In this document: positions 14,138-31,733 of the stretch, one piece after another
How positions within the stretch are numbered: the stretch's first letter is position 1
Layout of the letters: every line of letters starts with the position of its first letter
Origin: Rhizobacter sp.
Lineage (GTDB): Bacteria > Pseudomonadota > Gammaproteobacteria > Burkholderiales > Burkholderiaceae_C
Direction: 5' to 3'
DNA: 36,736 nucleotides
Assembly (NCBI GenBank): GCA_021732645.1
Contig: JAKFUQ010000043.1
Span: 1 to 36,736 of the forward strand
Notes under the pieces: generated by a model
What the model saw: only the letters and a program-made list of their open reading frames with translations
What the model was told of the DNA's origin: nothing
Databases searched by the model: none
Made by a program: the position numbers and the translations under genes

Positions 14138-14142
14138 AGACC

Positions 14143-14544: not shown

Positions 14545-14627
14545 CCGATCCACTGCGGGGTGGCGCTGTCGGCGCCGGTCCCCGCGGTCCGATCGAGCAC
14601 CAGCCGCCATCCAGGCAAGGAGAAAAA

Positions 14628-16763: not shown

Positions 16764-16807
16764 GCGCGCATCGGAACGTTACGACCACCACCAATGAAGA
16801 GGTTGAA

Positions 16808-19084
16808 ATGAGCGAAACCGTCAAGTCCTATGCGCCCAAGGTGCCCAGCGCGGAAGAGATCGCGCTGATCAAGAAATTCTTGAACGACACCACCCTGTTT
16901 CTCGGGCCCGACCCCGAGATCATGACCAACCATGACCTGATGCCGCGCAGTGCGACCGAAGACGCCGCCATCGCGAAGGTCAGCGACGCGCGCACCATCG
17001 CCAAGATCCGCGACCGCATCCAGGCCGGCTGCGACGAGGGTTTCGAGATGGTCGAGCAGATGGGCGCAGCGCCTGGTGCCAAGTGGGGCGACCTGATCAC
17101 CGGCGTCTACTCGGCCGCGGGCGACCTGGCCATCGCCAGCTCTGGCGGTGTGCTGGTGTTCTCGGCGCTGGTGCACCACCCGATCAAGTTCATCATCAAG
17201 AACTGGGTCAACGACCCGACGGTGGGTGTGCGCGAGGGCGACGGCTTCATCCACAACGACTCGCGCTACGGGAACATCCACAACACCGATCAAAGCATGA
17301 TCGTGCCGATGTTCCACCAGGGCAAGATCATCTGCTGGGTGGCCTGCACGGTGCACGAGGGCGAGAACGGGGCGATCGAGCCGGGCGGCATGCCGTCGAT
17401 GGCGGAGAGCCCGTCAGACGAAGGCCTGAAGATGTGCCCGTTCCGTGTCGTCGAGAACTACCAGATCAAGCGTGACATCCTGACCTTTCTGCAGAACTCG
17501 GTGCGCGAACCGAAGCTGCAGTACGAGGACATGAAGGTCAAGCTGTTCGCCTGCTTGCGCATCAAGCAGCGCATCGAGGAAACCATCCGCACCGACGGCC
17601 CCGAGTCGCTGATCTCGACGCTGCGGCTGTCGATGGAAAACGTGCGCACCGAGGTCAAGCGCCGCATCAGCGAGTGGCCCGACATGACGGTGCGCACCTA
17701 CATCATCCAGGACTCGACCTTGCGCGAGAACTGCGTGGTGAAGATCAACTGCCAGCTCACCAAGACCGGTGATCGGTTGATCTTCGACTTCCGCGGCTCC
17801 AGCCCTGAATTCACGAATCGCGCCACCAACACCATCCTCGCCGGCCTCAAGGGGATGCTGTCGCAGGTGTTCCTGAATTATGTCTGGCCCGATCTGCCAC
17901 GCAGCCAGGCGACCTTTGCGCCGATCGAGGTCGTCACCGACCCGCATTCAATCGTCAACAGCTCGTACGACGCACCGAACTCGCAAAGCTTGATGTCGAT
18001 CTTCACCGGCTTCACTGCTGGCCAGCATGCGGTAGCGAAGTTCCTCTACAGCTGCCCCGAAAAGTACACGAAGGTTCACGCACCGACCTTCAACATGATC
18101 AACACCTTCATCTGGGGTGGCGTCAGCCAGCACGGCGAAATTCTTGGCAACCTGTGCGCAGACCTGAACGGCATGGGCGGCGGTGCGCGCTCCGACATGG
18201 ACGGCGAACACGCGCTGGCACCGATCTTTGCCAACATGGCTGACATCGGCGAGCAAGAGATCAACGAAGAAGACGTGCCGTTCTTGCAGCTCGTGTCCAA
18301 GAAGATGACGATGGACGCCATTGCCCCGGGCAAATACCGCGGCGGGCAGGGCTACACGATGATTGTGGCTACCAAGGACAGCGAACAGTGGGGCTTCATG
18401 ACCACGACACAAGGCGCCAAGATTCCACCCATCCAAGGTCTGTTCGGCGGCTACGCCTGCGGGACGTATCCACTCTCGAAGGTGAAGGGCGTCGACGTCT
18501 ACAAGGTGTTGCTGGATCAGCCTGATCGTTTCAAGCACTCTATCGCCGAGATCATGAACGAGCGGCCGTTCGAGAGCGGGACCTACACCACTCACCACAT
18601 GGGCATGGGCTTCGAGATCTCGAAGCGCGGCGAGCTGTTCATGATTTCGCAAGGCGCGGGCGCCGGCTATGGCGACCTGCTGGAGCGCGACCCGGCGGCG
18701 GTGGTGCGTGACATCGAGGAGGGCCTGATGTCGCAAGGCGTGGCCGCGCGCCTGTACAAGGTGCAGTTCGATCCGGTCACGCTGGCCATCGACCATGAGG
18801 CCACCAGCGCCTTGCGCGCCGGCGAACGCAAGGCCCGCATCGCGCGGGGTGTGCCGTTCAAGGACTTCGTCAAGACCTGGAACAAGCCGAAGCCGCCGTC
18901 GCTGTTCCAGTTCTTCGGTTGCTGGGGCGACGATATCGGCACGCTGTACCTGGGCAGCCCGGACATCACGCGCGATGCCAACAAGCCGAAGCCGAACTAC
19001 ATGCGCCACCCGAAAGACGTGCGCATCGAGGAACTGGAAGCACGGCTCGCTGCGCTGGGGGCCTTGAAAGAAGAGAAGCAGTGA
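16808..19084 (+). CDS. Hydantoinase B/acetone carboxylase alpha-like catalytic subunit
   Basis: 758 aa. The HyuB/AcxB-like core includes GDGFIHNDSRYGNIHNTDQ...VHEGENG (putative metal-site region) and PGKYRGGQGY. ATG 16808 follows GAAGAGG. The track ORF starts earlier, at 16622. Confidence 0.88.
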   Translation: MSETVKSYAPKVPSAEEIALIKKFLNDTTLFLGPDPEIMTNHDLMPRSATEDAAIAKVSDARTIAKIRDRIQAGCDEGFEMVEQMGAAPGAKWGDLITGVYSAAGDLAIASSGGVLVFSALVHHPIKFIIKNWVNDPTVGVREGDGFIHNDSRYGNIHNTDQSMIVPMFHQGKIICWVACTVHEGENGAIEPGGMPSMAESPSDEGLKMCPFRVVENYQIKRDILTFLQNSVREPKLQYEDMKVKLFACLRIKQRIEETIRTDGPESLISTLRLSMENVRTEVKRRISEWPDMTVRTYIIQDSTLRENCVVKINCQLTKTGDRLIFDFRGSSPEFTNRATNTILAGLKGMLSQVFLNYVWPDLPRSQATFAPIEVVTDPHSIVNSSYDAPNSQSLMSIFTGFTAGQHAVAKFLYSCPEKYTKVHAPTFNMINTFIWGGVSQHGEILGNLCADLNGMGGGARSDMDGEHALAPIFANMADIGEQEINEEDVPFLQLVSKKMTMDAIAPGKYRGGQGYTMIVATKDSEQWGFMTTTQGAKIPPIQGLFGGYACGTYPLSKVKGVDVYKVLLDQPDRFKHSIAEIMNERPFESGTYTTHHMGMGFEISKRGELFMISQGAGAGYGDLLERDPAAVVRDIEEGLMSQGVAARLYKVQFDPVTLAIDHEATSALRAGERKARIARGVPFKDFVKTWNKPKPPSLFQFFGCWGDDIGTLYLGSPDITRDANKPKPNYMRHPKDVRIEELEARLAALGALKEEKQ

Positions 19085-21368: not shown

Positions 21369-22325
21369 ATGCCCGTTCAATGGTTCCCGGGTCACATGAA
21401 TGCGACCAAGAAGGCCATCATCGAGCGCGTCAAGGCGATCGACGTGGTGATCGAGATGCTCGACGCCCGGCTGCCCGGGTCGAGCGGCAACCCGCTGCTG
21501 GCCGAGCTGACGCGTGGCAAGCCGGCGCTGAAGGTGCTCAACAAGCAGGATCTGGCCGATCCACAGCGAACCTCACTGTGGATCGAGCACTTCAATGCGC
21601 AATCAGCCACTCAGGCGGTGGCGCTCGACGGCCGGGCCGGCGCGCCGGTGCACCGCGCAGTCGACGCCTGCCGCCAACTGGCGCCACTGCGTGGCGGCAT
21701 GGTCAAGCCACTGCGCGTACTGATCTGCGGCATTCCGAATGTGGGCAAGTCGACGGTGATCAACTCACTGGCTGGTCGTGTTGCCGCCAAGACCGGCGAC
21801 GAGCCCGGCATCACCAAGCTCGAGCAAAAGATCGTCATCGCGAATGATTTTTACCTGTACGACACACCGGGCATGCTGTGGCCGCGCATCGTGGTCGAAC
21901 AAGGTGGGTACCACCTCGCTGCCAGCGGTGCCGTCGGTCGCAATGCGTATGACGATGAGGAGGTGGCGCTGGTGTTGCTGGCCGCGCTGCATCGCGACTA
22001 TCCCGGCCTGGTCGAGCAGCGTTTTCGGCTCGATGCGACGCTGGCCTGCACCGACGATGAGCGGCTGGTTGCCATCGGCCGCCAGCGCGGTGCGGTGCTG
22101 CCGGGTGGGCACGTCAGCCTGCAGAAAGCCGCCGAGATCGTGCTGCACGACTTCCGCTCGGGCAGCCTGGGACGCATCACTCTGGAGACGCCGCACGATT
22201 GGCAGCGCTGGCAGGCCGAGGCGGCGGTGAAAGAGGCTGAGCGTGCAGCCCAGCGAGAGGCCAGGTCAAAGACCGGTTCCCGGTCCCGGGCCAGGTCTGC
22301 GTCGACTCAGACCAACGGTCAGTGA
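21369..22325 (+). CDS. rbgA: Ribosome biogenesis GTPase A (YlqF/RbgA)
   Basis: MPVQWFPGHMNATKK with circularly permuted G motifs: NKQD (G4), GIPNVGKST (G1) and DTPG (G3). Confidence 0.9.
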   Translation: MPVQWFPGHMNATKKAIIERVKAIDVVIEMLDARLPGSSGNPLLAELTRGKPALKVLNKQDLADPQRTSLWIEHFNAQSATQAVALDGRAGAPVHRAVDACRQLAPLRGGMVKPLRVLICGIPNVGKSTVINSLAGRVAAKTGDEPGITKLEQKIVIANDFYLYDTPGMLWPRIVVEQGGYHLAASGAVGRNAYDDEEVALVLLAALHRDYPGLVEQRFRLDATLACTDDERLVAIGRQRGAVLPGGHVSLQKAAEIVLHDFRSGSLGRITLETPHDWQRWQAEAAVKEAERAAQREARSKTGSRSRARSASTQTNGQ

Positions 22326-22807
22326 TGAGCGCTGGCGCCCGAGATCCAGCGCGATCCCGGTTTCAGTGAGCTCTCCACAGCGTCTTCCCGTTCCGCGCGC
22401 AGCGTGTCCAGCACCCGGGGCAGGTCACCTTGCAGGCGGTCCAGTGACAGCGGCTTCAACCAGTACTCGCGAGCTCCCAGGCTCATCGCCTTCACGATGT
22501 CGATCGTCAGCGTGTCACCCGTCAGCAGGATCACTTGGCAGTTGCCCTCGGCGATGTATCGATTCAGCGCGCGCACCACCTCCAGGCCGCTGATGTCGGG
22601 AAGGTGCATGTCCAGCAGGATCACATCGGGCATCGTGTCGAGCGCCGAGCGGATGCCCGAGCGGCCGTCGGCTGCCAAGCGCAGATCCACCGTGGGGAAC
22701 GCTGCCAGCAGAGCTTCGACCAGTTCCCGGCTGACAGGATCGTCCTCGATGCAGAGCACGGAGCCTCGAACGTCGCACCGTGGCGCGTTGTTTGCGTTCA
22801 TGTCCAT
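22319..22807 (-). CDS. Stand-alone response regulator (receiver domain only)
   Basis: 162 aa. CheY-like motifs SVLCIEDDP, DVILLDMHLPDISG, and LTGD...KPL. No output domain. Its 3' end overlaps the ylqF 3' end by 7 nt (convergent). Confidence 0.85.
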   Translation of the reverse strand: MDMNANNAPRCDVRGSVLCIEDDPVSRELVEALLAAFPTVDLRLAADGRSGIRSALDTMPDVILLDMHLPDISGLEVVRALNRYIAEGNCQVILLTGDTLTIDIVKAMSLGAREYWLKPLSLDRLQGDLPRVLDTLRAEREDAVESSLKPGSRWISGASAHH

Positions 22808-23069
22808 GGCGTGTGGCCCTCGGTCGACTGAAGCGGAGCAGGAGTTTTCAATGGTTGATGGTCGTCGTGTACTGCGCGCAACGTTATCGGTAGTTCCCCT
22901 TGATCCGGGGTTGACAAGCGAAAAAGTACTCGGTCAAAAAATCAGCCTACCGAACTCGCCGCTGCCGTGCCTGGGTGATGGCCACCGATGGATCTGGTCT
23001 ACTATTTACGTGCATCTGCGGTCGACGTGCCGTCAGCCGGGGGGCGGTCAATCACAAGGAGATGTGGCG

Positions 23070-24362
23070 ATGGCTGAACACTTGACTCGTCGCCAGCTTT
23101 TGGGCAGCGCAGCCACCGGCGTGGCGAGTGCGGCGCTGCCGTTCACGCCGACTGGCAACGCGCTCGCTGCTGGCGCGCCCATTGTGCTGGGCGTGCCCAC
23201 GTCGCAAACGGCAGCGGCCGGCGTTGCCGACGACCTGGATCACCTCAACGGCACCACCCTTGCGATGGAAGAAATCAATGCCGCAGGGGGGATCCTCGGT
23301 CGGCCATTGAAGCTGTTTGTGACCGACGTTGACAAGTTGTCGCCCGAAAGTTGCCAGCAGGCGATCGCCGCCGGTGTCGACGCCAAAGTGCATGCGATCT
23401 CGAATGCGTTCCTGTTCGTGCCGATTCCGGCCATGGACGCGTCGGCGAAGTACAAGGCGCCCTACCTGCAAGGCAACACCCAGCGCGCCGCTACCGAAGC
23501 CTTCAAGGCGAACTCGGCAAAGTACAGTCATATTTTCCAGACCGACCCGTCGGAGGTGCACTACGGCTACACCTATCCGCTGTGGCTGCAGGCGATGGAA
23601 GACTCGGGCAAGTGGAAGCCGAAAAACCGCAAGGTGCACATCGTGCAGGAGCAGGTGGCGTACTGCCAGACCATCTCGAAGGCTGCGCAGGCGGCGTTGA
23701 AAAAGAGCAAATTCCAGCTGGCAGCGGTGACCGACATCCAGTTTCCAGTGCAGGACTGGGGGCCGGTGATCCGCAAATTGAAGGAGGTCGATGCCGGCGC
23801 GATCATGATCGATCACTGGGTCGCCGCGGAGTACGCCGCCTTCTGCAAGCAGTTCCGTGCCAATCCGGTGAAGGACTCGCTCGTTTACCTGCAGTACGGT
23901 CCGTCGCAGCCCGAGTTCCTGACGCTGGCCGGTGACGCTGCCAACGGCTTTTGCTGGAGTACGGTGCTGGGTGTCTATGCCGACAGCCGCGGCAACGCAT
24001 TTCGTGCCAAGTACAAGAAGCGCTTCCCTGGCGTGATGGGTCTGGTGTACACCGGTAACGGCTACGACATCGCCTACTACCTGAAGGCGGCGTGGGAGGC
24101 GACGAAGGACCCGAATAACTTCAAAGCGGTGTGCGACTGGATTCGCGCCAATCCGTACCGTGGCGTGTGCGGACTGATGGACATGCGCAACCCGTGGCAG
24201 GAAGCGGCTCACTTCCCGGACAACGGCTACGACGTTACCGCCAAGGAACTTGAGAAAGGCATGAGTCAGCTCTACGTTCAGGTGCAGAACCGGGAGCACA
24301 GGATCATCTATCCGTACGAGTTGAAGGAATCGGGACTGGTCAAGGCACCCTGGTGGAGTTGA
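23070..24362 (+). CDS. Liv/AmiC-type (cluster-4-like) ABC substrate-binding protein with twin-arginine signal
   Basis: ATG 23070 follows AAGGAG. The N-terminus MAEHLTRRQLLGSAATGVASAALPF...NALA is Tat-like. The mature part (PIVLGVPTSQTAAAG...INAAGGILGRPLKL) is typical of LivK/amide-urea binding proteins. The track ORF 22404.. is an artefactual 5' extension. Confidence 0.85.
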   Translation: MAEHLTRRQLLGSAATGVASAALPFTPTGNALAAGAPIVLGVPTSQTAAAGVADDLDHLNGTTLAMEEINAAGGILGRPLKLFVTDVDKLSPESCQQAIAAGVDAKVHAISNAFLFVPIPAMDASAKYKAPYLQGNTQRAATEAFKANSAKYSHIFQTDPSEVHYGYTYPLWLQAMEDSGKWKPKNRKVHIVQEQVAYCQTISKAAQAALKKSKFQLAAVTDIQFPVQDWGPVIRKLKEVDAGAIMIDHWVAAEYAAFCKQFRANPVKDSLVYLQYGPSQPEFLTLAGDAANGFCWSTVLGVYADSRGNAFRAKYKKRFPGVMGLVYTGNGYDIAYYLKAAWEATKDPNNFKAVCDWIRANPYRGVCGLMDMRNPWQEAAHFPDNGYDVTAKELEKGMSQLYVQVQNREHRIIYPYELKESGLVKAPWWS

Positions 24363-24366
24363 GCCG

Positions 24367-25107
24367 TTGAACGCGCAGACGCTGTTCGCCTGCGAAGACA
24401 TCCACCTTGACCTCGGCGGGCGTGAGATCCTGCACGGCATCACGTTGGCGGTCGAGCGTGGCGAAGTTCTGGGTATCATCGGCCCCAACGGTGCTGGCAA
24501 GACCAGCTTGTTCGAAGTGTTGTCCGGTCGGCTGCAGCCCAAGCGCGGTCGGGTTCTGTTCGATGGCCAGGACATCACCCGTCTGCCGCTGTACGCGCGG
24601 GCGCGACTCGGCATCGGCCGCACCTACCAGACCCCGGTCGTGCCCGACGAGTTGACGGTGGGCGAGACCTTCAAGGCCGCGCGCCAGGCGTATGAGCCGT
24701 ATCTGACGCGCTTCGATGCCGAGTACGGTGCCGAGTTGATCGGTTTCAAGGTGTCGCCTGACGAACCCACCGTCAAGCTCGAAACCTTGAACCGCCGCAA
24801 GCTGCTGCTCGCCTGCCTGCTGATGCGCCGACCCAAGCTGCTGCTGATGGACGAGCCGGCAGCCGGGCTGATCAACTCGGAGGTCGACGAGATCGACCAC
24901 CTGATCCGCCTACTGTCAAAGGAGATGAACATCGCCGTGGTGATCGTCGAACACCGCATTGAATTGCTGGACACCATTGCCGACCGCGTGATGGTGATGG
25001 ACGCGGGCGAGACCATCTCGCAGGGCTCGCTGGCCGACGTGCTGGCCGATCCGAAAGTGCATGCGGCCTACTTCGAGAACGTCGTCGAAGGCAGCCTCGA
25101 TGGATGA
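24367..25107 (+). CDS. ABC transporter ATP-binding protein (LivG-like) with a degenerate signature motif
   Basis: Walker A GPNGAGKTS, Q-loop RTYQTP, Walker B LLLMDEPAAGL and H-loop VEH. The LSGGQ position reads LETLNRRK. The only possible start is TTG 24367, with GGAG 8 nt upstream. Confidence 0.85.
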   Translation: MNAQTLFACEDIHLDLGGREILHGITLAVERGEVLGIIGPNGAGKTSLFEVLSGRLQPKRGRVLFDGQDITRLPLYARARLGIGRTYQTPVVPDELTVGETFKAARQAYEPYLTRFDAEYGAELIGFKVSPDEPTVKLETLNRRKLLLACLLMRRPKLLLMDEPAAGLINSEVDEIDHLIRLLSKEMNIAVVIVEHRIELLDTIADRVMVMDAGETISQGSLADVLADPKVHAAYFENVVEGSLDG

Positions 25108-25825
25108 GCGCCCGCAGGTGCTGAACGTGCAGGGTTTGTCGGCCGGCTACGGGCCGCTGCGGGTGATTCACGACCTCGATCTGATCGTGCATGCCGGCGA
25201 GCGGGTCGGCCTGGTGGGACTGAACGGGCACGGCAAGTCGACGCTGTTCTATGCCATTGCAGGTCTCACCGGCTGGCAGCGCGGTTCGATCCGGCTGAAC
25301 GGCGTCGAGGTCGGTCGCACCCGCAGCCAGGGGCCGGGCCGCTACACGCACCTGGTGGTGCGGCAGGGCCTGGCGCTGATCCCGCAGGGCGATGAAATCT
25401 TCCACGGCCTGACGGTCGAAGAGCATCTCGACTCCGGCGCGTTCACGCCGCGTGCCTGGAAGGAGCGGGCGTCGCGCAAGGAAGGCGTTCTCAATATCTT
25501 TCCGCCGCTGCGCAAGTTGATGCGAATTCCGGTCGGCCGGCTGTCGGGCGGTGAACGTCGCATGGTGTCGATCGGCCGCGGGCTGATGGCCGAGGCCGCG
25601 CTGTTCCTCGTCGACGAGCCCTCGCTCGGCCTTGCACCGAAGATCGGCAAGGGCGTGATGGACGCGCTGATGGCGGTCGATCTGGGCCTGTCGGCCATGG
25701 TGATCGCCGAGCAGAACGTGGCGCTGCTCGAAGGTCGCGTCGACCGCGTGATCGGCATGCACGCGGGCAAGCTCAAGGGCGAAGCCACCGCGGCCATGTC
25801 GTTGCAGACCGCGCGCTACGCCTGA
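25100..25825 (+). CDS. ABC transporter ATP-binding protein (LivF-like)
   Basis: Walker A GLNGHGKST, signature LSGGERRM, Walker B LFLVDEPSLGLAP, and the AEQN motif. ATG 25100 overlaps the upstream stop (ATGGATGA). Confidence 0.88.
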   Translation: MDERPQVLNVQGLSAGYGPLRVIHDLDLIVHAGERVGLVGLNGHGKSTLFYAIAGLTGWQRGSIRLNGVEVGRTRSQGPGRYTHLVVRQGLALIPQGDEIFHGLTVEEHLDSGAFTPRAWKERASRKEGVLNIFPPLRKLMRIPVGRLSGGERRMVSIGRGLMAEAALFLVDEPSLGLAPKIGKGVMDALMAVDLGLSAMVIAEQNVALLEGRVDRVIGMHAGKLKGEATAAMSLQTARYA

Positions 25826-25837
25826 ATCCCCGCGCCC

Positions 25838-26719
25838 ATGGACCTGCTGTACGTCGTCTCGAACGCCTTGGTGCTCACCTGCATCTACGGCATGCTGGCC
25901 ATCGGTATTTCGATCACCTGGTCCAGCGTTGGGCTGATCAATTTGTCGTATGGCTTTATCTTCGCGTTCGCCGGCTATGGCGCGTGGTATGCCGCGCAGC
26001 ATGTATCGGAGCACGGGGCGGTGGTTTTGGCTGCGGGGGTCATCTCCGGCGCGCTCGGCGGATTGCTGGTGTGCGCGCTGGCCTTCATTCCGATCCACGA
26101 CAAGCCCAACTTCACCGTGCGCGGGCTGATCGCCACGCTGGCCATCAGCCTCATCGGCACGCAGGGGCTGATGTGGTGGTTCGGCCCGCGCGCGAAGAAT
26201 CTGCCGGAGATCTTCGGCAACTGGAGCGTGATGGTTGGCGACACCGCGCTGACCGCCGACAAGATCGGCAACGTGATCACCTCGATCGTCTTCGTCGCGG
26301 CCGTGGTGCTGTGGATGCGCTCCAGCCGCCGTGGCCTGGAGATCCGAGCGATGATGATGAACCCGCATGCAGCGGCCATCGTCGGCATCGGTGTGCGGCG
26401 CACCGGCTTCTATGTCATGGCGATCACCGGCGGCATGGCCGGGCTGGCGGCGGTGCTGCTGTCGCAGACCTATTACATCTCGCCGTTCGGCGGTCTGACC
26501 CCGATGATCAAGGGCGTCAGCATTGCGCTGTGCGGCGGCCTCGGCAGCGTGCAAGGTGCGGTGATCGCCGCCGCCATTCTTGGGTTGAACGAGGCGATCA
26601 CTAGCGTGGTGCTTGGTGGGCAGTACGTGCTGATCACGCAGTTCTTGCTGATCATCGCGATCTTGCTTGTGCGCCCACGCGGCATTGCGGGCCTCCTTGA
26701 TCGCGCTCGCGAGGCCTGA
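25838..26719 (+). CDS. Branched-chain-amino-acid-type ABC permease (LivH-like)
   Basis: 293-aa polytopic membrane protein ending LLVRPRGIAGLL, typical of LivH-family permeases. Confidence 0.88.
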   Translation: MDLLYVVSNALVLTCIYGMLAIGISITWSSVGLINLSYGFIFAFAGYGAWYAAQHVSEHGAVVLAAGVISGALGGLLVCALAFIPIHDKPNFTVRGLIATLAISLIGTQGLMWWFGPRAKNLPEIFGNWSVMVGDTALTADKIGNVITSIVFVAAVVLWMRSSRRGLEIRAMMMNPHAAAIVGIGVRRTGFYVMAITGGMAGLAAVLLSQTYYISPFGGLTPMIKGVSIALCGGLGSVQGAVIAAAILGLNEAITSVVLGGQYVLITQFLLIIAILLVRPRGIAGLLDRAREA

Positions 26720-26721
26720 GC

Positions 26722-28359
26722 ATGGCGAAGTTCTGGCGCAATCCACTCGCCGACTGGGGTGTCGACGGCGCCAATGCGTCGGTGCCGGTCGCGCCGCATC
26801 GTCCGCCGCAGGAGCCGTGGGACGCGACACGCGAGTCGCGCACGCCGTTGCTGCCGGTCGGTCGCTTTCGGCGCTACTACAAATGGCCGGGCCACGGCGG
26901 CTGGACCTGGAACCGGCTGCGCTACTGGCCGACGCGACGGCGCCTGCTCGACATCCGCGGCGAATACAACCCGAAGACGCTGCGCCGCGAGAAGACGATC
27001 GTCGACAAGCGACCGATCTGGTGGGTGATGGCGCTTTGCTTTCTGTTCATCGCACCGTGGCTGATGCCGATGGACTACCAGAGCACGCTGCTGACCGCGG
27101 GCTCGACCTTCCTGATCTACGCCGCTATCAACCTGTGCTGGATGCTGATCATCGGGACGGCCGGCATCTATTCGCTGGCCACTTACGCGGTGGTCGGCGC
27201 CGCCGCCTTCGGCACGGCTTATCTGTCCATCCAGTATGGTCTGCCGTGGTACTTGCTGCCCTTTGTCGGGTCGCTCATCGGGCTCGCATTCGGCGCGGTC
27301 ATCGCCATTCCGGCGACGCGGCTCGATGGCTTCTACTACGCGTTGCTGACGCTGGGGCTCAACGAGTTGTGCCGCGTCTATGCCTTGCAGTCGAAGCTGT
27401 TCGGTTCGTCGACCGGCGGGCTGTACGGCGCGTCTTCGTACATCCCCGAAAGCTGGGACGACGCGAGCCAGTCGCTGCTGTCGTACTTCGCCTGCCTGCT
27501 GCTGATGGTGCTGGCGTTGGGGCTGTTCCGCTTCGTGAACGGCAAGCGCATCGGCCGCATCCTGCGCATGGCCCCAGAGAAGCGCGAGGCGTTCGCCGAG
27601 GCGACCGGCGTCAACTTCCGGCAGGCGCGCGTGATCGTGTTCATCGTCTCGTCGGCCGCGCTTGGCTTCATTGGCGGCTTCTACAGCAGCCACTACCGCG
27701 GCGTATCGTTTTCGATCTTCAGCTTTGACACCGTGCTGCTGGGTGTGGCGATGCTGGTGGTCGGCGGCATCGGCCGGGCCGAGGGTGCGGTGGCCGGCGC
27801 GGCCATCGTGATCTTCCTCGACAAGGTGCTGATCTCGCTGGGGCCGGTGCGGCTGATCATCATTGGCGTGATCATGCTGGCGGTGGTGCTGCAGCTCAAC
27901 GGTGGGCTGTTCGGCGTCCAGTCGCAGTTCCGCGCCTGGCGCAACAAGAAGAAGAGTGAACGACGTTCGACCCGTGCCGAGAAAGGAGGCGAGATGCTGC
28001 CCGAAGAAGCCACCGAGACCCGCGACAAGGATCAGATCTACTGGCGTCGCTACGACAAGATGCAACGCGACTACCTGAAGAAGCTGGTGTCGCCCGAGGT
28101 CATCGACGAACATGCCCGCAGCCCGCTCGGCCAGCACAGCGAGGCGCTGGAGCGGCTGCTGCTGTACTTCCGCCGCGCGCCGATGTCCGACAAGTACGCG
28201 ATCGTCACGGTTGAGGCCTTCAAGGCCTACCGCATCGTGGCGCTGTCGGGTCAGCGTGGTGTGGCGCCGCGTCTGGTCGAGGAGAAGACCTATGCCTCAC
28301 CCGAAGAGGCCTATCACGGCGTCTTCATGCGCCGCGTCCAGGACCTGCTCGAGTCTTAA
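26722..28359 (+). CDS. LivM-like ABC permease with an N-terminal extension of about 100 aa and a soluble C-terminal extension of about 140 aa (DMFase small-subunit position)
   Basis: 545 aa. Residues about 100-400 form a LivM-type polytopic core (YSLATYAVVGAAAFG...YYALLTLGLNE...LLGVAMLVVGGIGRAEGAV). Residues about 403-545 are hydrophilic. ATG 26722 is 2 nt after the LivH stop. Confidence 0.8.
   Translation: MAKFWRNPLADWGVDGANASVPVAPHRPPQEPWDATRESRTPLLPVGRFRRYYKWPGHGGWTWNRLRYWPTRRRLLDIRGEYNPKTLRREKTIVDKRPIWWVMALCFLFIAPWLMPMDYQSTLLTAGSTFLIYAAINLCWMLIIGTAGIYSLATYAVVGAAAFGTAYLSIQYGLPWYLLPFVGSLIGLAFGAVIAIPATRLDGFYYALLTLGLNELCRVYALQSKLFGSSTGGLYGASSYIPESWDDASQSLLSYFACLLLMVLALGLFRFVNGKRIGRILRMAPEKREAFAEATGVNFRQARVIVFIVSSAALGFIGGFYSSHYRGVSFSIFSFDTVLLGVAMLVVGGIGRAEGAVAGAAIVIFLDKVLISLGPVRLIIIGVIMLAVVLQLNGGLFGVQSQFRAWRNKKKSERRSTRAEKGGEMLPEEATETRDKDQIYWRRYDKMQRDYLKKLVSPEVIDEHARSPLGQHSEALERLLLYFRRAPMSDKYAIVTVEAFKAYRIVALSGQRGVAPRLVEEKTYASPEEAYHGVFMRRVQDLLES
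27994..28359 (+). other. In-frame internal SD+ATG unit inside the LivM-like ORF: 121-aa soluble module, candidate DMFase small-subunit equivalent
   Basis: AAAGGAGG (27982-27989) lies 4 nt before the in-frame ATG at 27994, just after the last TM segment and a KKKSERR linker. The module ends 5 nt before the ATG of the large-subunit homolog, which has no SD of its own. Confidence 0.4.
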
Positions 28360-28364
28360 CCACC

Positions 28365-30686
28365 ATGGCACAGATCAAGCTGTTCGGCTACGCCAACAAG
28401 ATCTCCGTGAAACCCGGAGACACCGTCGATTTCCACGTCAACGCCGACGGCACCACGCAGGCGCAGACGCAGCTGGTGCGTCTGATCCACGGCGATCAGC
28501 ACCCTCACGGCCCGGGCTTCATGGAGGAAGAGATCGCTTGCGCAGGCAACGGCGAATGGCCCGTGCGCAAGCAGTACACCCAGCTCGGCTCGTTTCTCGA
28601 AGTGGCCGACGCGGCTGGCCACCTGGCGCTCGAAGGCAGCCTGACGATCTGCGCCTATGTGTTCTCGAGTTTGCCGCAGGCCGGCCTGCGGCAGGCGCTG
28701 GTCGGCCGCTGGCACAACCAGTGCAACATCGGTTACTGCCTCGGCATCAACCAGCAAGGGCACATCGAGTTCTGGGTCGGGCAGGGCGACGAGGTCGACT
28801 ACGTCAAGACCGAGGTGCCGTTGCTGCCGAAGCAGTGGTACTTCGTCGCCGTCAGCTTCGACGCCGCCTCGGGCTGCGCCACGGTGCACCAGGAAAGCGT
28901 CGCCAACCGCTACAACAGCCTGCTTGGCGCGGCGAGCCCGATCGATTGCCGCTCGCACGTCAGCGAGCGGTTCCGCTTCCGGCAGAAGCACCTGCCGGAC
29001 ACGCCGTTCCTGATCGCCGGCTCGCGCGACTTCCACGAAACACGAGGCCACTTCGTCTCGCAGACCTTCTGCGGCAAGATCGATCGGCCCGCCGTCTATG
29101 ACCGCGCGTTGTCGTGGGACGAGTTGGTCGTGATCATGAGAGGTGGCACGCCCGGCCGTGACGGGCTGGTCGCGTTCTGGGACACGACGGCCGGCTACAC
29201 CGACCAGGGCATCGGCGACACCGTGGTCGACGTTGGCCCACACGGCCTGCATGCCCAGGGCTACAACCGCCCGGTGCGAGCGCAGACCGGCTGGAACTGG
29301 AGCGGTCGTAACGACTGCTTCCGCCTCGCGCCACAGGAGTACGGCGGCATTGAATTCCACTATGAGGCAATGATCTCGTCAAACTGGGCGGTGACTCGCA
29401 GCGTCACGCTGCCTGGGGACTTGAAAAGTGGTGCCTACGCGATGCGGCTGCGCGCCGACGATGGCCGTGGTCTGGCCGAGGAGTACATCGTGTTCTTCGT
29501 GCGTGCTGCGAAGCCGAGTGCGCCAATCGCCTTCCTGTTCCCGACTGCCAGCTACATGGCCTATGCGAACGAGCATTTGAGCTTCGATGCGCAGATCATC
29601 CAGCCAATGACCGGGCAGCCGCCGATCGTCACAGACATCGACATCGAGATGGTCAAGAACAAGGAGTTCGGGCTGTCGACCTACGACGCCTGGGAGGACG
29701 GCAACGGTGTGTGCTACAGCTCGTACCACCGGCCCATCGTCAACATGCGACCCAAGCACCGCATCTCCAGCATGGGCATCACCTGGCAGTTTCCGGCCGA
29801 CCTGTCCATCGTGGCCTGGTTGGAGCACAAGGGCTACGACTACGAGGTGCTGACCGACGAAGACCTGCACCGTGACGGCCTGTCAGCACTGAAGCCGTAC
29901 CGGTGTGTCATCACCGGCACCCACCCCGAGTACTACTCGGAAGTGATGCTCGATGCGACCGAGGATTACATCGCCGGCGGCGGGCGCTACGTCTACATGG
30001 GTGGCAACGGTTACTACTGGAACGTCGCGTTCCGCGCCGAGGAGCCGTGGGTGATGGAGGTGCGCAAGCTCGACTCTGGCATGCGCGCCTGGAACGCGCG
30101 GCCCGGCGAGCATTACCTGGCGACCACCGGCATGAAGAGCGGGCTTTGGAAGAATCTGGGTCGTCCGCCGCAGAAACTGGTGGGGGTGGGCTTCATCGCG
30201 GAGGGGTTCGAGAGCAGCCGGCCGTACCGTCGCATGCCTGACAGCTACCACCGCACCGTGGACTGGGTCATGAAGGGCGTGACGGGCGAGATGATCGGCG
30301 ATGGCGGTCTGGCCCATGGCGGCGCGGCCGGCATCGAACTCGATCGCTACGACCTGAGCCTGGGCACGCCACCGCACGCCCGCATCCTCGCCTCGTCGGG
30401 GGGCCACAGTGACAACTACCTGCTGGCGATCGAGGAGGTGCTGTATCCATACCCGGGCCTCAGTGGCTCACAGGACTACCGCATCCGCGGCGACATGGTG
30501 TATTTCTCGGCGCCGAACCTGGGCGCGGTGTTCAGCGGCGGCTCGATCGCGTTCGGACAGGCGCTGCCGGTCAACGGGTTCGAGAACAACGTGTCGGTGG
30601 TGCTTGGCAACGTGGTCGATGCCTTCATCAAACCTGGCAACCTGCCCGGTGGCATGTGGGTCGATGCAGAGAAGCAGTGGCGCTGA
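28365..30686 (+). CDS. N,N-dimethylformamidase large (beta) subunit family protein
   Basis: 773 aa. Blocks LVRLIHGDQHPHGPGF, GWNWSGRNDCF, ASYMAYANE, FGLSTYD...YHRPIVNMRPKHR, GTHPEYYS, PWVMEVRK and GDGGLAHGGAAGIELDRYDLSLGTPP match my recollection of DmfA2-type proteins from Methylobacterium/Paracoccus. The length also fits. Confidence 0.85.
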   Translation: MAQIKLFGYANKISVKPGDTVDFHVNADGTTQAQTQLVRLIHGDQHPHGPGFMEEEIACAGNGEWPVRKQYTQLGSFLEVADAAGHLALEGSLTICAYVFSSLPQAGLRQALVGRWHNQCNIGYCLGINQQGHIEFWVGQGDEVDYVKTEVPLLPKQWYFVAVSFDAASGCATVHQESVANRYNSLLGAASPIDCRSHVSERFRFRQKHLPDTPFLIAGSRDFHETRGHFVSQTFCGKIDRPAVYDRALSWDELVVIMRGGTPGRDGLVAFWDTTAGYTDQGIGDTVVDVGPHGLHAQGYNRPVRAQTGWNWSGRNDCFRLAPQEYGGIEFHYEAMISSNWAVTRSVTLPGDLKSGAYAMRLRADDGRGLAEEYIVFFVRAAKPSAPIAFLFPTASYMAYANEHLSFDAQIIQPMTGQPPIVTDIDIEMVKNKEFGLSTYDAWEDGNGVCYSSYHRPIVNMRPKHRISSMGITWQFPADLSIVAWLEHKGYDYEVLTDEDLHRDGLSALKPYRCVITGTHPEYYSEVMLDATEDYIAGGGRYVYMGGNGYYWNVAFRAEEPWVMEVRKLDSGMRAWNARPGEHYLATTGMKSGLWKNLGRPPQKLVGVGFIAEGFESSRPYRRMPDSYHRTVDWVMKGVTGEMIGDGGLAHGGAAGIELDRYDLSLGTPPHARILASSGGHSDNYLLAIEEVLYPYPGLSGSQDYRIRGDMVYFSAPNLGAVFSGGSIAFGQALPVNGFENNVSVVLGNVVDAFIKPGNLPGGMWVDAEKQWR

Positions 30687-30713
30687 GCCGCAGCCGACGC
30701 CATTGCGAGCGAA

Positions 30714-31733
30714 TCAGGGCTGATGGTCGACGCCCAGCACGCGATGCAGTCGCGTGCTGGTCGTTGTGTACTCCAGCGCTGTGACACGGTCGGGGCGCAG
30801 TCGGGTGGCTGCACCGTAGGCGGCCAGCGTCGCCTCGTGGAAGCCGCACAGGATCAGTTTTTTCTTGCCGGGGTAGGTGGTCACATCGCCCACCGCAAAC
30901 ACACCGCTCAGGCCGGTCTCGAAGGTTTCGGTTTCAACGACCACCTGCTTGCGCGCAAGTGGCACACCCCAGTCGGCAATCGGCCCGAGCTTGGGACTCA
31001 GACCCCATCGAACCAGCAGCAGGTCACAGGGCCATGTTGTGGTGTTTGCGTCGGCGTCCACCACCTGCAGGTGTGTCAAGGTGTCGCCAGCGGCATCAAA
31101 GCCGATGGCCTGGGCGGCCACAAAGCGCATGGTGCCAGCGGCGCAGGCGGCACGCAGGCGCTCGACGTGCTCTGGCGCCGCCTTGAAAGCGTCGCGGCGA
31201 TGCATCAGCGTGACGCTGGCCGGCAGTGCGGATTGAGCCGTCGACAGCGTCAGCGCGGCATCCAGCGCCTCGTCGTCGTCACCCAGCACGATCACGTGGC
31301 GCCCGGCTGCCGACGGTGGCTCGTCGCCGCTGTGGAACAGCTGGCGGCCGGCGAACTGCGCGATGCCGTCCAGCTTGAGTCGCCGCGGCTGAAATGCACC
31401 GACGCCGCCTGCGATGAACACGGTGCGCGCCGTGAAGTGGGTGCCAGTGGAGGTGCCGATGTCGTAACGGCCATCGGCGCGCGCAGCGACGGTGGCCACC
31501 TGCTGAGACAGGTGAAACGTCGGTGCCATGGGCTCAATCTGGGTCAGCAGGCGTTCGACCAGTTCGCGACCGGTGCACCGCGGCAGCGCCGGGATGTCGT
31601 AGATCGGTTTGTCGGGATACAGCGCGAGGCACTGGCCGCCCGGTGCGGGCAGGCTGTCGACAACGTGGCAGCGGATCTCCTGCAGACCGAGCTGGAACAC
31701 CTGGAACAGGCCGACCGGGCCCGCGCCGATCAC
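30714..31733 (-). CDS. fpr: Ferredoxin-NADP(+) reductase, thioredoxin-reductase-like type
   Basis: IGAGPVGLFQVFQLGLQEI...PGGQC..LYPDKPIYDIP and a second dinucleotide motif VIVLGDDDEALD, typical of TrxR-like FNR. The first canonical start is GTG 31733, but conserved N-terminal residues (IHTDALV) are encoded upstream in frame (see findings). Confidence 0.8.
   Translation of the reverse strand: MIGAGPVGLFQVFQLGLQEIRCHVVDSLPAPGGQCLALYPDKPIYDIPALPRCTGRELVERLLTQIEPMAPTFHLSQQVATVAARADGRYDIGTSTGTHFTARTVFIAGGVGAFQPRRLKLDGIAQFAGRQLFHSGDEPPSAAGRHVIVLGDDDEALDAALTLSTAQSALPASVTLMHRRDAFKAAPEHVERLRAACAAGTMRFVAAQAIGFDAAGDTLTHLQVVDADANTTTWPCDLLLVRWGLSPKLGPIADWGVPLARKQVVVETETFETGLSGVFAVGDVTTYPGKKKLILCGFHEATLAAYGAATRLRPDRVTALEYTTTSTRLHRVLGVDHQP

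What the first reader, a model, noticed from the sequence alone, without database searches (positions are those of the whole stretch)
27928..28359. ABC permease ORF runs into a DMFase small-subunit-sized soluble module that keeps its own SD and ATG
Seen in sequence:
- The LivM-like permease ORF (26722..28359) does not stop after its last transmembrane segment (...LQLNGGLFGVQSQFRAWRNKKK). It continues for about 140 hydrophilic residues.
- Inside this tail a near-consensus Shine-Dalgarno, AAAGGAGG (27982-27989), lies 4 nt before an in-frame ATG (27994). Translation from it would yield a separate 121-aa protein.
- The tail ends 5 nt before the ATG of the DMFase large-subunit homolog, which has no SD of its own. 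Its translation therefore looks termination-reinitiation coupled.

Established knowledge: characterised N,N-dimethylformamidases are heteromers of a roughly 15-kDa small subunit and a roughly 85-kDa large subunit. They are encoded by adjacent dmfA1-dmfA2 genes, with the small subunit first.

Inference: this tail is the small-subunit equivalent, and there are three ways to read it:
- it is genuinely fused to the importer permease, tethering the amidase to the cytoplasmic face of its own transporter as an uptake-hydrolysis metabolon;
- it is made in two forms, fused and free;
- the permease has lost its stop codon.

I do not know of a described transporter-tethered amidase of this type.
Basis: partly seen in the sequence, partly recalled or inferred. 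Interest (0 to 1): 0.8.

Follow-up and report, generated by a model that had tools for sequence, protein, structure and literature searches.

The report
Amidase small subunit fused to permease
The membrane permease of a nutrient importer carries, as a conserved extra tail, the small subunit of the amide-splitting enzyme encoded next door, so the enzyme is probably docked onto its own transporter, and a built-in second start site may also make a free copy of that subunit.

Summary
ORF 26722-28359 (545 aa) is a LivM/UrtC-type ABC permease that continues into a roughly 120-aa domain.

- **Identity of the tail.** It is homologous to the N,N-dimethylformamidase (DMFase) small subunit. Sequence match to PDB 6LVB_B has E=1.3e-13, and the AF2 model matches that chain at TM 0.80.
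- **Not an assembly error or a recent stop loss.**
  - The 545-550-aa architecture recurs in at least 120 protein clusters.
  - About 45 syntenic loci from Alpha-, Beta- and Gammaproteobacteria and from conjugative plasmids carry it.
  - No intact locus has an intervening stop codon.
- **The fused form is functional.** It stays under strong purifying selection (dN/dS about 0.1) in lineages where it can only be made as a fusion.
- **The internal SD+ATG (27982-27996) looks selected.**
  - Loci with no other small-subunit gene keep the ATG.
  - They also use rare codons that spell AAAGGAGG and have an unstructured mRNA window there.
  - Loci with a separate small-subunit gene have lost all three features.

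Best reading: both a tethered and a free small subunit are made, and they recruit the catalytic 773-aa subunit to the importer.

Still untested: binding of the large subunit, the substrate, and actual use of the internal start. No paper describing this fusion was found, and databases call it a "branched-chain amino acid permease".

The parts
23070..24362 (+). Periplasmic substrate-binding protein (Peripla_BP_6) with a Tat-like signal MAEHLTRRQLL. It is the first gene of the operon.
   Evidence: Pfam. Start codon, SD (-8.5) and signal sequence. The nearest PDB entry is 3h5l, a putative branched-chain amino acid ABC transporter protein. Syntenic in almost all related loci.
24367..25107 (+). ABC ATPase, LivG/UrtD-like.
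   Evidence: Pfam ABC_tran. The best NCBIfam model is UrtD, below its cutoff.
25061..25825 (+). ABC ATPase, LivF/UrtE-like. The start may instead be ATG 25100.
   Evidence: Pfam ABC_tran. NCBIfam UrtE, below cutoff. Alternative start.
25838..26719 (+). Permease, LivH/UrtB-like, 293 aa.
   Evidence: Pfam BPD_transp_2. NCBIfam UrtB, below cutoff.
26722..28359 (+). Fused gene of 545 aa: a LivM/UrtC-type permease followed by a C-terminal DMFase small-subunit (DMF_alpha) domain.
   Evidence: ORF. Pfam. At least 120 full-length homolog clusters carry PF02653+PF26354. Syntenic loci.
26722..27009 (+). Conserved soluble N-terminal extension (residues 1-96), rich in W, R and Y. Function unknown.
   Evidence: Conserved in the 65-sequence alignment A1 and in all three locus types. 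No family hit.
27010..27906 (+). Transmembrane domain (residues about 97-395).
   Evidence: AF2 helices. Foldseek similarity to the type II importer permeases BtuC, HmuU and HI1471.
27907..27993 (+). Basic juxtamembrane helix plus linker (residues 396-424, ...FRAWRNKKKSERRSTRAEKGGE). This is the most conserved stretch of the protein.
   Evidence: Junction alignment. dN/dS is 0.06 in type A and 0.10 in type B. Identity is 0.79, against 0.67 for the TMD. Residues 414-419 have pLDDT below 50, and the 411-430 blocks average 50-59.
27982..27989 (+). Internal Shine-Dalgarno AAAGGAGG. It is spelled by the rare codons AAA and GGA.
   Evidence: Sequence. The duplex energy of -11.6 kcal/mol is within the top 0.6% of positions in the ORF. 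In this operon AAA makes up 14% of Lys codons and GGA 2% of Gly codons. The motif is conserved in type A loci only.
27994..28359 (+). DMF_alpha domain (residues 425-545). The same stretch is the candidate internally initiated 121-aa free small subunit starting at ATG 27994.
   Evidence: 6LVB_B, E=1.3e-13. AF2 tail with 4 helices and 2 strands, pLDDT mostly 83-91. Foldseek 6lvb_B, TM 0.80. Free paralogs start at the equivalent residue.
28365..30686 (+). DMFase large (catalytic) subunit homolog, 773 aa.
   Evidence: Pfam DMFA2_C and Laminin_G_3. 6LVB_A, E=3e-173, about 40% identity. The Fe ligands and catalytic residues are conserved as Y400, Y440, H520, E522, N548 and E658. The pocket residue F693 is Y694 here.

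Best explanation
**Shown**
- The gene at 26722-28359 encodes a real, ancient, two-part protein. An HAAT-family (LivM/UrtC-type) ABC-importer permease has a cytoplasmic C-terminus that continues, through a highly conserved basic linker, into a domain with the sequence and fold of the DMFase small (alpha) subunit.
- The next gene encodes the catalytic Fe-dependent large (beta) subunit, with all catalytic residues intact.
- The fused alpha domain is under purifying selection as a fusion.

**Inferred**
[quoted passage not shown] Loci like this one have no other alpha gene nearby. The permease-borne alpha domain is therefore taken to be the enzyme's alpha subunit.
- It would then hold the amidase on the cytoplasmic face of the importer, so that an imported small amide (an N-substituted formamide or similar, not necessarily DMF) is hydrolysed where it enters.
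- The enzyme is alpha2beta2, but a transporter has only one LivM-type permease. The conserved internal SD+ATG at 27982-27996 most likely also produces a free 121-aa alpha from the same mRNA to fill the second site.
- In lineages that own a separate alpha' gene this internal start has decayed.
For: **1. Homology and fold.**
- The tail matches 6LVB_B at E=1.3e-13 over residues 10-127 of 132.
- The AF2 tail has 4 helices and 2 strands, as described for the small subunit in PMC7686228.
- The top Foldseek hit is 6lvb_B at TM 0.80.

**2. Conservation of the fusion.**
- The junction WRNKKKSERRSTRAEKGGE-LPEEATE is nearly invariant in 45 loci.
- The ORF is intact in all loci except the broken ones.
- At least 120 clusters of 545-550 aa carry both domains.
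- The operon SBP, ATPase, ATPase, LivH, LivM::alpha, (alpha'), beta is syntenic throughout.
- The fused gene also sits on 26 Agrobacterium, Rhizobium and Aminobacter plasmids.

**3. Function as a fusion.** Type B loci have no internal ATG and carry a separate alpha' gene. There the fused alpha domain has dN/dS 0.10-0.12 against 0.17 for the TMD. It is 80% identical among loci, against 56% for the free alpha'.

**4. Link between alpha and beta.**
- Beta always follows the fused gene.
- A natural single-chain alpha-beta protein exists, P0352.
- Beta alone is inactive in Paracoccus, and alpha lines the active-site entrance (PMC7686228).

**5. Topology.**
- There are 9 K/R residues in the 20 that follow the last TM helix.
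- The TMD resembles BtuC-type permeases, which from my own knowledge have 10 TM helices with both termini in the cytoplasm.
- Beta has no signal peptide.

**6. Internal start.**
- The ATG is kept in 21 of 24 loci without alpha'. The 3 exceptions have GTG-ATG, or ATC-TTG with AAAGGAGG retained.
- It is lost in 13 of 16 loci with alpha' (Fisher 3e-5, not corrected for phylogeny).
- Among 120 protein clusters, Met is present in 116. Of the four exceptions, two were looked up and carry a free alpha' (P0206, P0215). P0210 shares the junction of the Rhodopseudomonas B29 locus L036/L037, which has an alpha'. P0224 is type A.
- The rare codons AAA (18 of 19, background 0.18) and GGA (11 of 19, background 0.09) occur in type A. 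In type B the counts are 1 of 10 and 0 of 10.
- The least-structured mRNA windows of the last 1.2 kb lie at +15 to +30 of the ATG in type A. The homologous site is more structured than average in types B and C.
- This is the strongest SD in the whole operon.
- Free alpha paralogs begin at the same residue.
Against: - Docking is therefore inferred.
- The motif EKGGE is conserved at the protein level even where there is no ATG. Part of the SD-likeness is thus forced by the amino acids. A scan of synonymous-site entropy showed no general dip at the site apart from the invariant AAA.
- Four type B loci have GTG at the site, which could still initiate translation.
- The association statistics are not corrected for phylogeny. 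Type B is probably one clade, so the number of independent events is small. There are at least two losses of Met, given the type C cases.
- One tether per transporter against an alpha2beta2 enzyme is a stoichiometric puzzle. The free-alpha idea answers it only by assumption.
- Small neutral amides cross membranes easily, so the benefit of channelling is unproven.
- Alpha is about 31% and beta about 40% identical to the characterised DMFase. A Paracoccus aminophilus paralog pair of similar divergence was not linked to DMF use (PMC4543880).
- There are no expression or proteomic data.
Confidence: 0.55

Rival explanations
1. Tether only. The fusion protein is the sole source of the alpha subunit. 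The internal SD+ATG is not used, and is a by-product of the conserved Glu-Lys-Gly-Gly-Glu-Met peptide. Two transporters, or one empty alpha site, serve each beta2 dimer.
For: - EKGGE is conserved at the protein level in all locus types, including those without ATG.
- There is no general dip in synonymous variability at the site.
- AAGGAGG alone occurs at the chance rate in the window.
- Type B shows that the fused form is functional on its own.
Against: - Met is invariant only where no other alpha gene exists. Elsewhere it is freely replaced by A, V, L, T or I.
- Rare AAA and GGA codons are enriched only in type A.
- The unstructured mRNA window is found only in type A.
- The single type A locus that lost ATG keeps AAAGGAGG and has TTG one codon downstream.
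Confidence: 0.22
2. Expression device, not a tether. The fusion only ensures co-expression. The alpha domain is released by cleavage in the conserved linker, or only the internally initiated product is active. The amidase then works as a free cytosolic alpha2beta2 enzyme.
For: - The linker is the most conserved segment (dN/dS 0.06-0.10). It could be a processing site.
- Characterised DMFases are soluble (PMC7686228).
- Free-standing alpha is the norm in the family: most of the 288 representative clusters are 115-140 aa.
Against: - A fusion kept for this long, with no intact locus reverting to a stop codon, is hard to explain if separation is the goal. A stop codon plus the existing SD would achieve that directly.
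- Type B and C loci keep the fused domain under strong constraint although a free alpha' gene is already present.
Confidence: 0.1
3. Regulatory domain. The alpha-like tail acts mainly as a cytoplasmic gate or sensor of the transporter, comparable to the C-terminal regulatory domains of MetN, ModC and MalK. It would couple import rate to the state or presence of the amidase or its products, rather than serve as the catalytic complex's structural subunit.
For: - In type B loci a complete canonical alpha'-beta pair exists next to the fused alpha. The fused copy there must add something other than simple enzyme assembly.
- The linker and the N-terminal extension are both highly conserved.
Against: - In type A loci no other alpha gene lies in the locus, and beta alone is inactive in the characterised enzyme.
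- No precedent or test is available here.
- This reading is not mutually exclusive with tethering.
Confidence: 0.1
4. Artefact. A sequencing or assembly error, or a recent mutation, removed the permease stop codon in this genome.
For: Four related loci (L002, L029, L044, L046) have the tail in a short ORF.
Against: - Those four loci have broken reading frames. In L029, which was inspected, the large-subunit gene is broken too.
- The junction peptide is conserved in 45 loci and at least 120 clusters from independent isolates, MAGs and plasmids.
Confidence: 0.01

Closest known systems
N,N-dimethylformamidase DmfA1/DmfA2 of Paracoccus sp. DMF (PDB 6LVB; Arya et al. 2020, PMC7686228)
   Same: - The small-subunit domain has the same fold: 4 helices and 2 strands, TM 0.80.
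- It lies immediately upstream of a large subunit with the same three-domain family signature.
- The large subunit keeps the same 2-Tyr-1-Glu iron site plus H519, N547 and E657.
   Different: - Identity is only about 31% for alpha and about 40% for beta.
- The pocket residue F693 is Tyr here.
- Alpha is the C-terminal domain of a membrane permease, not a free 15-kDa protein.
- The genes are embedded in an ABC importer operon.
- The substrate is unknown.
HAAT-family ABC importers (LivHMGF-J, urea UrtABCDE, short-chain amide FmdDEF)
   Same: - The gene set is the same: SBP, two ATPases, and LivH-like and LivM-like permeases.
- The best NCBIfam models are UrtB, UrtC, UrtD and UrtE.
   Different: - All scores fall far below the equivalog cutoffs, so this is a separate subfamily.
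- The LivM-type subunit carries a 96-aa N-terminal extension and a 150-aa C-terminal linker plus enzyme-subunit domain.
- I know of no described member with either addition (own knowledge).
Two proteoforms from one gene by in-frame internal initiation (CcmM M58/M35, CheA-L/S, ClpB, IF2; genome-wide in the Ribo-RET study, bioRxiv 10.1101/520783)
   Same: An in-frame ATG with a strong SD at a domain boundary would yield the C-terminal domain as a separate protein alongside the full-length one.
   Different: - Here the evidence is comparative only.
- The long form is an integral membrane transporter subunit and the short form would be a soluble enzyme subunit.
Non-covalent enzyme-channel pairs (Helicobacter pylori urease-UreI, FocA-PflB, GlpF-GlpK; own knowledge)
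   Same: The concept is the same: a cytoplasmic enzyme held at the exit of its substrate's transporter.
   Different: - Those associations are non-covalent and involve channels.
- Here an enzyme subunit is genetically fused to the permease of a primary active ABC importer.
ABC importers with accessory regulatory domains (MetNI C2, ModBC, MalK; own knowledge)
   Same: An extra cytoplasmic C-terminal domain is appended to a transporter subunit.
   Different: - Those domains sit on the ATPase and bind the substrate or regulators.
- This one sits on the permease and is homologous to an enzyme subunit.

Membership tests
DMFase small subunit (DmfA1; Pfam PF26354 DMF_alpha) | Sequence homology to a characterised small subunit | tested here: met
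   phmmer against PDB gives 6LVB_B at E=1.3e-13, covering residues 10-127 of 132. Homologs carry a precomputed PF26354 DMF_alpha hit.
DMFase small subunit (DmfA1; Pfam PF26354 DMF_alpha) | Fold of four helices and two strands, with long N- and C-terminal helices | tested here: met
   The AF2 tail has helices 436-455, 458-466, 474-485 and 527-544 and strands 492-498 and 502-507, with pLDDT mostly 83-91. Foldseek gives 6lvb_B at TM 0.80. The published description is in PMC7686228.
DMFase small subunit (DmfA1; Pfam PF26354 DMF_alpha) | Encoded immediately upstream of the large-subunit gene | tested here: met
   The gap is 5 nt in the window. The arrangement is syntenic in the related loci.
DMFase small subunit (DmfA1; Pfam PF26354 DMF_alpha) | Free-standing polypeptide of about 15 kDa | tested here: inconclusive
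   As an ORF it is fused to a permease. A free 121-aa form from ATG 27994 is supported only comparatively.
DMFase small subunit (DmfA1; Pfam PF26354 DMF_alpha) | Binds the large subunit and is needed for its activity | not testable with these tools
The only support is indirect: the natural alpha-beta fusion P0352.
DMFase large subunit (DmfA2) | DMFA2_C domain and full-length homology | tested here: met
   PF20254 at E=1.7e-87. 6LVB_A at E=3e-173 over residues 2-760.
DMFase large subunit (DmfA2) | 2-Tyr-1-Glu Fe(III) ligands plus H519, N547 and E657 | tested here: met
   They map to Y400, Y440, E522, H520, N548 and E658. F693 maps to Y694 (using the alignment).
DMFase large subunit (DmfA2) | Hydrolyses DMF or N-methylformamide | not testable with these tools
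   Identity to the characterised enzyme is about 40%. A similarly diverged paralog pair in P. aminophilus was not linked to DMF use (PMC4543880).
HAAT ABC importer permease (LivM/UrtC) | BPD_transp_2 membrane domain in an operon with an SBP, a LivH-like permease and two ATPases | tested here: met
HAAT ABC importer permease (LivM/UrtC) | Reaches the NCBIfam equivalog cutoff for LivM or UrtC | tested here: not met
   UrtC scores 47.7 and 44.1 bits against cutoffs of 575 and 296. LivM scores 48.3 against 366. This is a distinct, unnamed subfamily.
Genes giving two proteoforms by in-frame internal initiation | In-frame start codon with an SD at suitable spacing, conserved among orthologs | tested here: met
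   AAAGGAGG, then 4 nt, then ATG. The ATG is kept in 21 of 24 loci that lack alpha', and rare SD-forming codons are enriched.
Genes giving two proteoforms by in-frame internal initiation | Locally unstructured mRNA at the internal start | tested here: met
   The type A mean z is +0.94 at the ATG, and the six least-structured windows lie at +15 to +30. Type B scores -1.20 and type C -0.74.
Genes giving two proteoforms by in-frame internal initiation | Short proteoform detected experimentally | not testable with these tools
   No Ribo-seq or proteomic data were available.

The most novel reading that the evidence does not exclude
This would be a covalently built uptake-hydrolysis machine.
- The C-terminal alpha domain of the ABC permease inserts into the beta2 dimer and forms part of the substrate tunnel.
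- The amide released by the transporter is then handed directly to the buried Fe site.
- An internally initiated free alpha from the same gene fills the second, untethered alpha site.
- One gene would thus supply two stoichiometrically distinct roles in a transporter-enzyme supercomplex.
- The conserved N-terminal extension and the linker may be further docking or gating elements.
Probability: 0.35. Interest if true: 0.85.

Novelty: new variant of a known kind. Interest (0 to 1): 0.66.

Why it matters
- **A defined transport metabolon.** It would be a clear, genetically encoded case of an enzyme subunit fused to the membrane subunit of a primary active importer. The system is widespread in methylotrophs, rhizobia and environmental Proteobacteria, and on conjugative plasmids.
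- **A testable question.** Whether bacteria physically couple uptake to first-step catabolism becomes directly testable in culturable hosts.
- **A likely undetected second product.** It adds a probable internal-initiation proteoform that current annotation cannot see.
- **An annotation gap.** The gene is called "branched-chain amino acid ABC transporter permease" in RefSeq and JGI. This hides both the amidase link and the probable amide substrate.
- **An open role for the enzyme family.** The clade is clearly distinct from the solvent-degrading DMFase, which was thought to be a recent adaptation to a man-made chemical. Its natural substrate and ecological role are unknown.

Tried and rejected
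1. **Alpha-beta interface prediction.** No interface test was possible.
2. **Synonymous-site entropy along the fused ORF.** There is no general dip at the internal start. Only Lys421 (AAA) is invariant in type A. I relied instead on codon-specific, SD-energy and mRNA-structure tests.
3. **Apparent unfused loci.** L002, L029, L044 and L046 are broken reading frames rather than natural stop codons. L029 was checked directly and is frameshifted in the permease and in beta.
4. **Search with the N-terminal 96 aa.** It returned only 7 fragments and was uninformative.
5. **Rfam scan of the window.** No riboswitch or other RNA family was found that could hint at the ligand.
6. **Promoter and terminator scan of 22300-31000.** There is no internal promoter-like site. 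The three terminator-like sites are fewer than expected by chance.
7. **AAGGAGG frequency in the window.** It is at chance, so the motif alone is not evidence.
8. **Literature searches.** I searched DMFase with permease, ABC transporter and dmfA1/dmfA2. No description of the fusion was found. The library is limited to open-access papers.
9. **Termination-reinitiation coupling of beta.** I rejected it as a general feature, because the gaps are 25-73 nt in most orthologs.
Full report
**1.

The + strand ORF 26722..28359 encodes 545 aa.
- Pfam BPD_transp_2, the LivH/LivM-type permease domain, covers residues 128-389.
- After the last hydrophobic segment (...LQLNGGLFGVQSQFRAWRNKKK) the frame stays open for about 143 residues.
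- AAAGGAGG lies at 27982-27989, 4 nt before the in-frame ATG at 27994. That ATG opens a 121-codon reading frame.
- The stop TAA (28357-28359) is followed after 5 nt by the ATG (28365) of a 773-aa protein.
- The 773-aa protein has Laminin_G_3 and DMFA2_C domains.

The internal ATG has the strongest anti-SD pairing of any start in the operon.
- It scores -11.6 kcal/mol. The first gene (SBP, ATG 23070) scores -8.5, the large subunit -2.5, and the other starts between +0.4 and -5.9.
- It is also the strongest of all 62 internal in-frame ATG codons in the six genes.
- AAGGAGG by itself occurs at the chance rate in the window, 3 observed against 2.2 expected. The single-sequence observation is only suggestive, and the weight comes from comparison with other loci.

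**2. What the tail is**

- A sequence search of the PDB with the 143-aa tail finds one protein, the N,N-dimethylformamidase small subunit (6LVB chain B). The E-value is 1.3e-13 and the match covers residues 10-127 of 132.
- Public homologs of the tail carry the Pfam family PF26354, named DMF_alpha.
- An AlphaFold2 model of the whole 545-aa protein, built on 65 full-length homologs, has mean pLDDT 78.
- In that model the tail (residues 427-544, pLDDT mostly 83-91) has four helices and two strands, with long first and last helices. This is the architecture Arya et al. describe for the small subunit (PMC7686228).
- Foldseek against the PDB ranks 6lvb_B first, with TM-score 0.80 on the target. BtuC, HmuU and HI1471-type ABC permeases follow for the membrane part.

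The downstream 773-aa protein matches the DMFase large subunit.
- The match to 6LVB_A has E=3e-173 and about 40% identity.
- It keeps the iron ligands Y399, Y440 and E521, and H519, N547 and E657.
- The pocket residue F693 is Tyr here.

**3. The fusion is real and old**

- A scan of one genome per species returned 41 loci. They include Rubrivivax (97% identical tail, the nearest relative), Methylobacillus, Methylobacterium, Methyloversatilis, Hansschlegelia, Bradyrhizobium, Rhodopseudomonas, Dongia and many MAGs of Alpha-, Beta- and Gammaproteobacteria.
- In every one, the match begins at tail residue 1, inside the permease's last helix.
- The junction peptide WRNKKKSERRSTRAEKGGE-LPEEATE is almost invariant.
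- The stop-to-stop ORF holding the tail is at least 500 aa in all loci that are not cut by a contig end. The four exceptions (L002, L029, L044, L046) have broken frames. L029 was inspected directly: the permease is split into overlapping 383-aa and 189-aa ORFs and the large-subunit gene is split too.
- A full-length protein search lists 120 clusters, all 523-565 aa with both PF02653 and PF26354 at 65-96% identity. They include RefSeq proteins of Methylocella, Chelatococcus, Verminephrobacter, Methylopila, Mesorhizobium, Aminobacter and Bradyrhizobium.
- The gene also sits on 26 Agrobacterium, Rhizobium and Aminobacter plasmids, where it is annotated only as 'branched-chain amino acid ABC transporter permease'.
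- The whole operon is syntenic: SBP, ATPase, ATPase, LivH-like permease, LivM-like::alpha, then beta.

An assembly error or a recent stop-codon loss is excluded.

**4. Three locus types**

- Type A (the window and about 25 loci): fused alpha, then beta.
- Type B (14 loci): fused alpha, a free alpha' gene, then beta.
- Type C (L003, L023, L029, L036/L037, L047, L051): fused alpha, beta, free alpha', then a second beta.
- Aminobacter plasmid pMDW2 has fused alpha, beta and a second beta, with no alpha' annotated.

All alpha versions are about 30-32% identical to the Paracoccus small subunit. Fused alpha domains are better conserved among themselves (0.71-0.80) than free alpha' copies (0.56).

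**5. The fused form is functional as a fusion**

Most type B loci have a non-start codon at the internal position, and a separate alpha' gene is present. Four have GTG, which could in principle still initiate. Even so, the fused domain evolves under strong constraint.

| Region (type B) | dN/dS |
|---|---|
| Fused alpha domain | 0.10-0.12 |
| Linker | 0.10 |
| Last 90 codons of the membrane domain | 0.17 |

dS is about 1 in these comparisons. In type A the linker is the most constrained part of the protein (dN/dS 0.06; identity 0.79 against 0.67 for the TMD). The tethered domain and its linker are therefore not a tolerated read-through product.

**6. Evidence that the internal start is used in loci like the window**

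*(a) The start codon itself.*
- Residue 425 is ATG in 21 of 24 distinct loci that have no second alpha gene.
- The three exceptions still offer a start. L042 and L044 read GTG-ATG. L049 reads ATC-TTG and retains AAAGGAGG.
- ATG is replaced by GCN, ACC, GTG, CTG, CTT or ATT in 13 of 16 loci that do have an alpha' gene. Fisher's test gives 3e-5, not corrected for phylogeny.

*(b) A prediction tested on protein clusters.*
- Of the 120 full-length clusters, 116 have Met at this position.
- Two of the four exceptions were looked up (P0206, P0215) and both have a free alpha' gene in the locus.
- P0210 shares its junction with the Rhodopseudomonas B29 locus L036/L037, which also has one.
- The fourth, P0224, is the L049 case above.

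*(c) Codon choice before the ATG.*

| Codon | Type A | Type B | Background usage |
|---|---|---|---|
| Lys421 = AAA | 18 of 19 | 1 of 10 | 0.18 |
| Gly422 = GGA | 11 of 19 | 0 of 10 | 0.09 |

Mean SD pairing is -10.2 kcal/mol in loci without alpha' and -7.5 in loci with it. Neighbouring synonymous sites are randomised.

*(d) mRNA structure.*
- In type A the six least-structured 42-nt windows of the last 1.2 kb of the ORF all lie at +15 to +30 nt from the ATG. The mean z-score is +0.94 at the ATG itself.
- The homologous site scores -1.20 in type B and -0.74 in type C.

*(e) Free alpha paralogs.* They start at or within about ten residues of the equivalent position, with their own SD. A Met425 product of 121 aa is close in length to the 132-aa Paracoccus subunit.

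*Caveats.*
- EKGGE is conserved as protein everywhere, so part of the SD-likeness is imposed by the amino acids.
- Type B is probably a single clade.
- Four type B loci have GTG at the position.
- Nothing here is experimental.

**7. How it most likely works**

*Established for the Paracoccus enzyme (PMC7686228).*
- The complex is alpha2beta2 or (alpha2beta2)2.
- Beta expressed alone is inactive.
- The N-terminal helix of alpha wedges between the two beta subunits.

*Topology.*
- The C-terminus of the permease is cytoplasmic by the positive-inside rule, with 9 K/R in the 20 residues after the last helix.
- The membrane domain resembles BtuC-type permeases, which from my own knowledge have 10 TM helices with both termini in the cytoplasm.
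- Beta has no signal peptide.

*Inference.*
- The permease-borne alpha occupies an alpha site on beta and holds the amidase at the cytoplasmic face of the importer.
- A transporter has one LivM-type subunit but the enzyme has two alpha sites. A free alpha would fill the second site. It would come from the internal start in type A and from a separate gene in types B and C.
- The transporter components score best, though below cutoffs, against urea (Urt) models. Methylobacillus loci insert a signal-peptide, porin-like ORF between the fused gene and beta. Both fit uptake of a small amide.
- With about 31% and 40% identity to the DMF enzyme, and a similarly diverged P. aminophilus paralog pair not linked to DMF use, the substrate should be regarded as unknown.

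**8. What could not be shown**

- Indirect support comes from strict gene adjacency and from a natural single-chain alpha-beta protein, P0352, 891 aa.
Most orthologs have 25-73 nt between the genes, usually without an SD.

**9. Comparison with what is known, and novelty**

- The parts are known: the DMFase subunits, an HAAT ABC importer, and in-frame internal initiation.
- The domain combination is visible in precomputed Pfam annotations.
- An exhaustive search finds only 288 representative clusters of DMF_alpha at E of 1e-3 or better, most of them free-standing at 115-140 aa. The permease fusion is one populous branch of a small family.
- No open-access paper combining DMFase with permease or ABC transporter terms was found. 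Papers on DMFase genomics do not mention it.
- I rate it a new variant of known kinds. It is an enzyme subunit genetically fused to the membrane subunit of an ABC importer, probably with a second, free proteoform from the same gene.

**10. Verdict**

| Claim | Confidence |
|---|---|
| The fusion is real and functional | about 0.9 or higher |
| The tail serves as the alpha subunit and docks beta at the transporter | about 0.6 |
| The internal start is used in this window | about 0.6 |

Overall interest is 0.66.

Noticed in passing
window 26722-27009: The fused permease has a conserved, soluble N-terminal extension of about 96 aa, rich in W, R and Y (VGRLRYYYKWPGHG..W.RLRYWPTRR..IRGEYNPKTLRREKTIVDKRPIW). 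It is present in all locus types and has no Pfam or NCBIfam match. It could be another docking or regulatory element.
   Followed up: partly
L011:7483-8634 (also L014): In the Methylobacillus loci a 383-aa ORF lies between the fused gene and the large-subunit gene. It has a signal peptide and a porin-like C-terminus (...GLQLQF). This suggests a dedicated outer-membrane channel for the substrate.
   Followed up: no
P0352 (891 aa, from the representative search): This is a natural single-chain protein with a DMF_alpha-like segment (residues 25-123) followed by DMFA2_C (443-867). It is a Rosetta-stone fusion of the small and large subunits.
   Followed up: partly
L052 (Aminobacter sp. MDW-2 plasmid pMDW2, NZ_CP060199.1 116238-132600): The plasmid-borne operon has the fused permease::alpha followed by two large-subunit genes (780 and 773 aa). 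These are 79 nt apart, and no free small-subunit gene is annotated. The same fused gene occurs on 24 Agrobacterium and several Rhizobium conjugative plasmids, so the system is mobile. L001 is flanked by a Tn3-family transposase.
   Followed up: partly
window 28340-28364 and the homologous regions of L001-L026: The large-subunit genes mostly lack a recognisable Shine-Dalgarno across orthologs. The internal site in the preceding gene has the strongest one in the operon.
   Followed up: partly
window 23070-23132: The substrate-binding protein starts at ATG 23070 with a twin-arginine-type signal (MAEHLTRRQLLGSAATGVASAALPF). The mechanical ORF list extends it spuriously upstream to 22404.
   Followed up: partly
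window 8914-19084: A MalT/LuxR-type regulator lies at 8914-11889 on the minus strand. Next to it is a cluster with two hydantoinase A-like genes and one hydantoinase B-like gene (12119-14137, 14628-16763, 16622-19084), resembling acetone carboxylase or oxoprolinase. It appears unrelated to the finding.
   Followed up: no
public protein database hits P0012-P0120: Dozens of metagenomic gene calls are exactly 121 aa, start at the Met425 equivalent, and are up to 88% identical to the window tail. Many are named 'branched-chain amino acid transport system permease protein' by JGI. Some may be true free genes, as P0082 is. Others are probably calls made at the internal SD+ATG on truncated contigs.
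   Followed up: no
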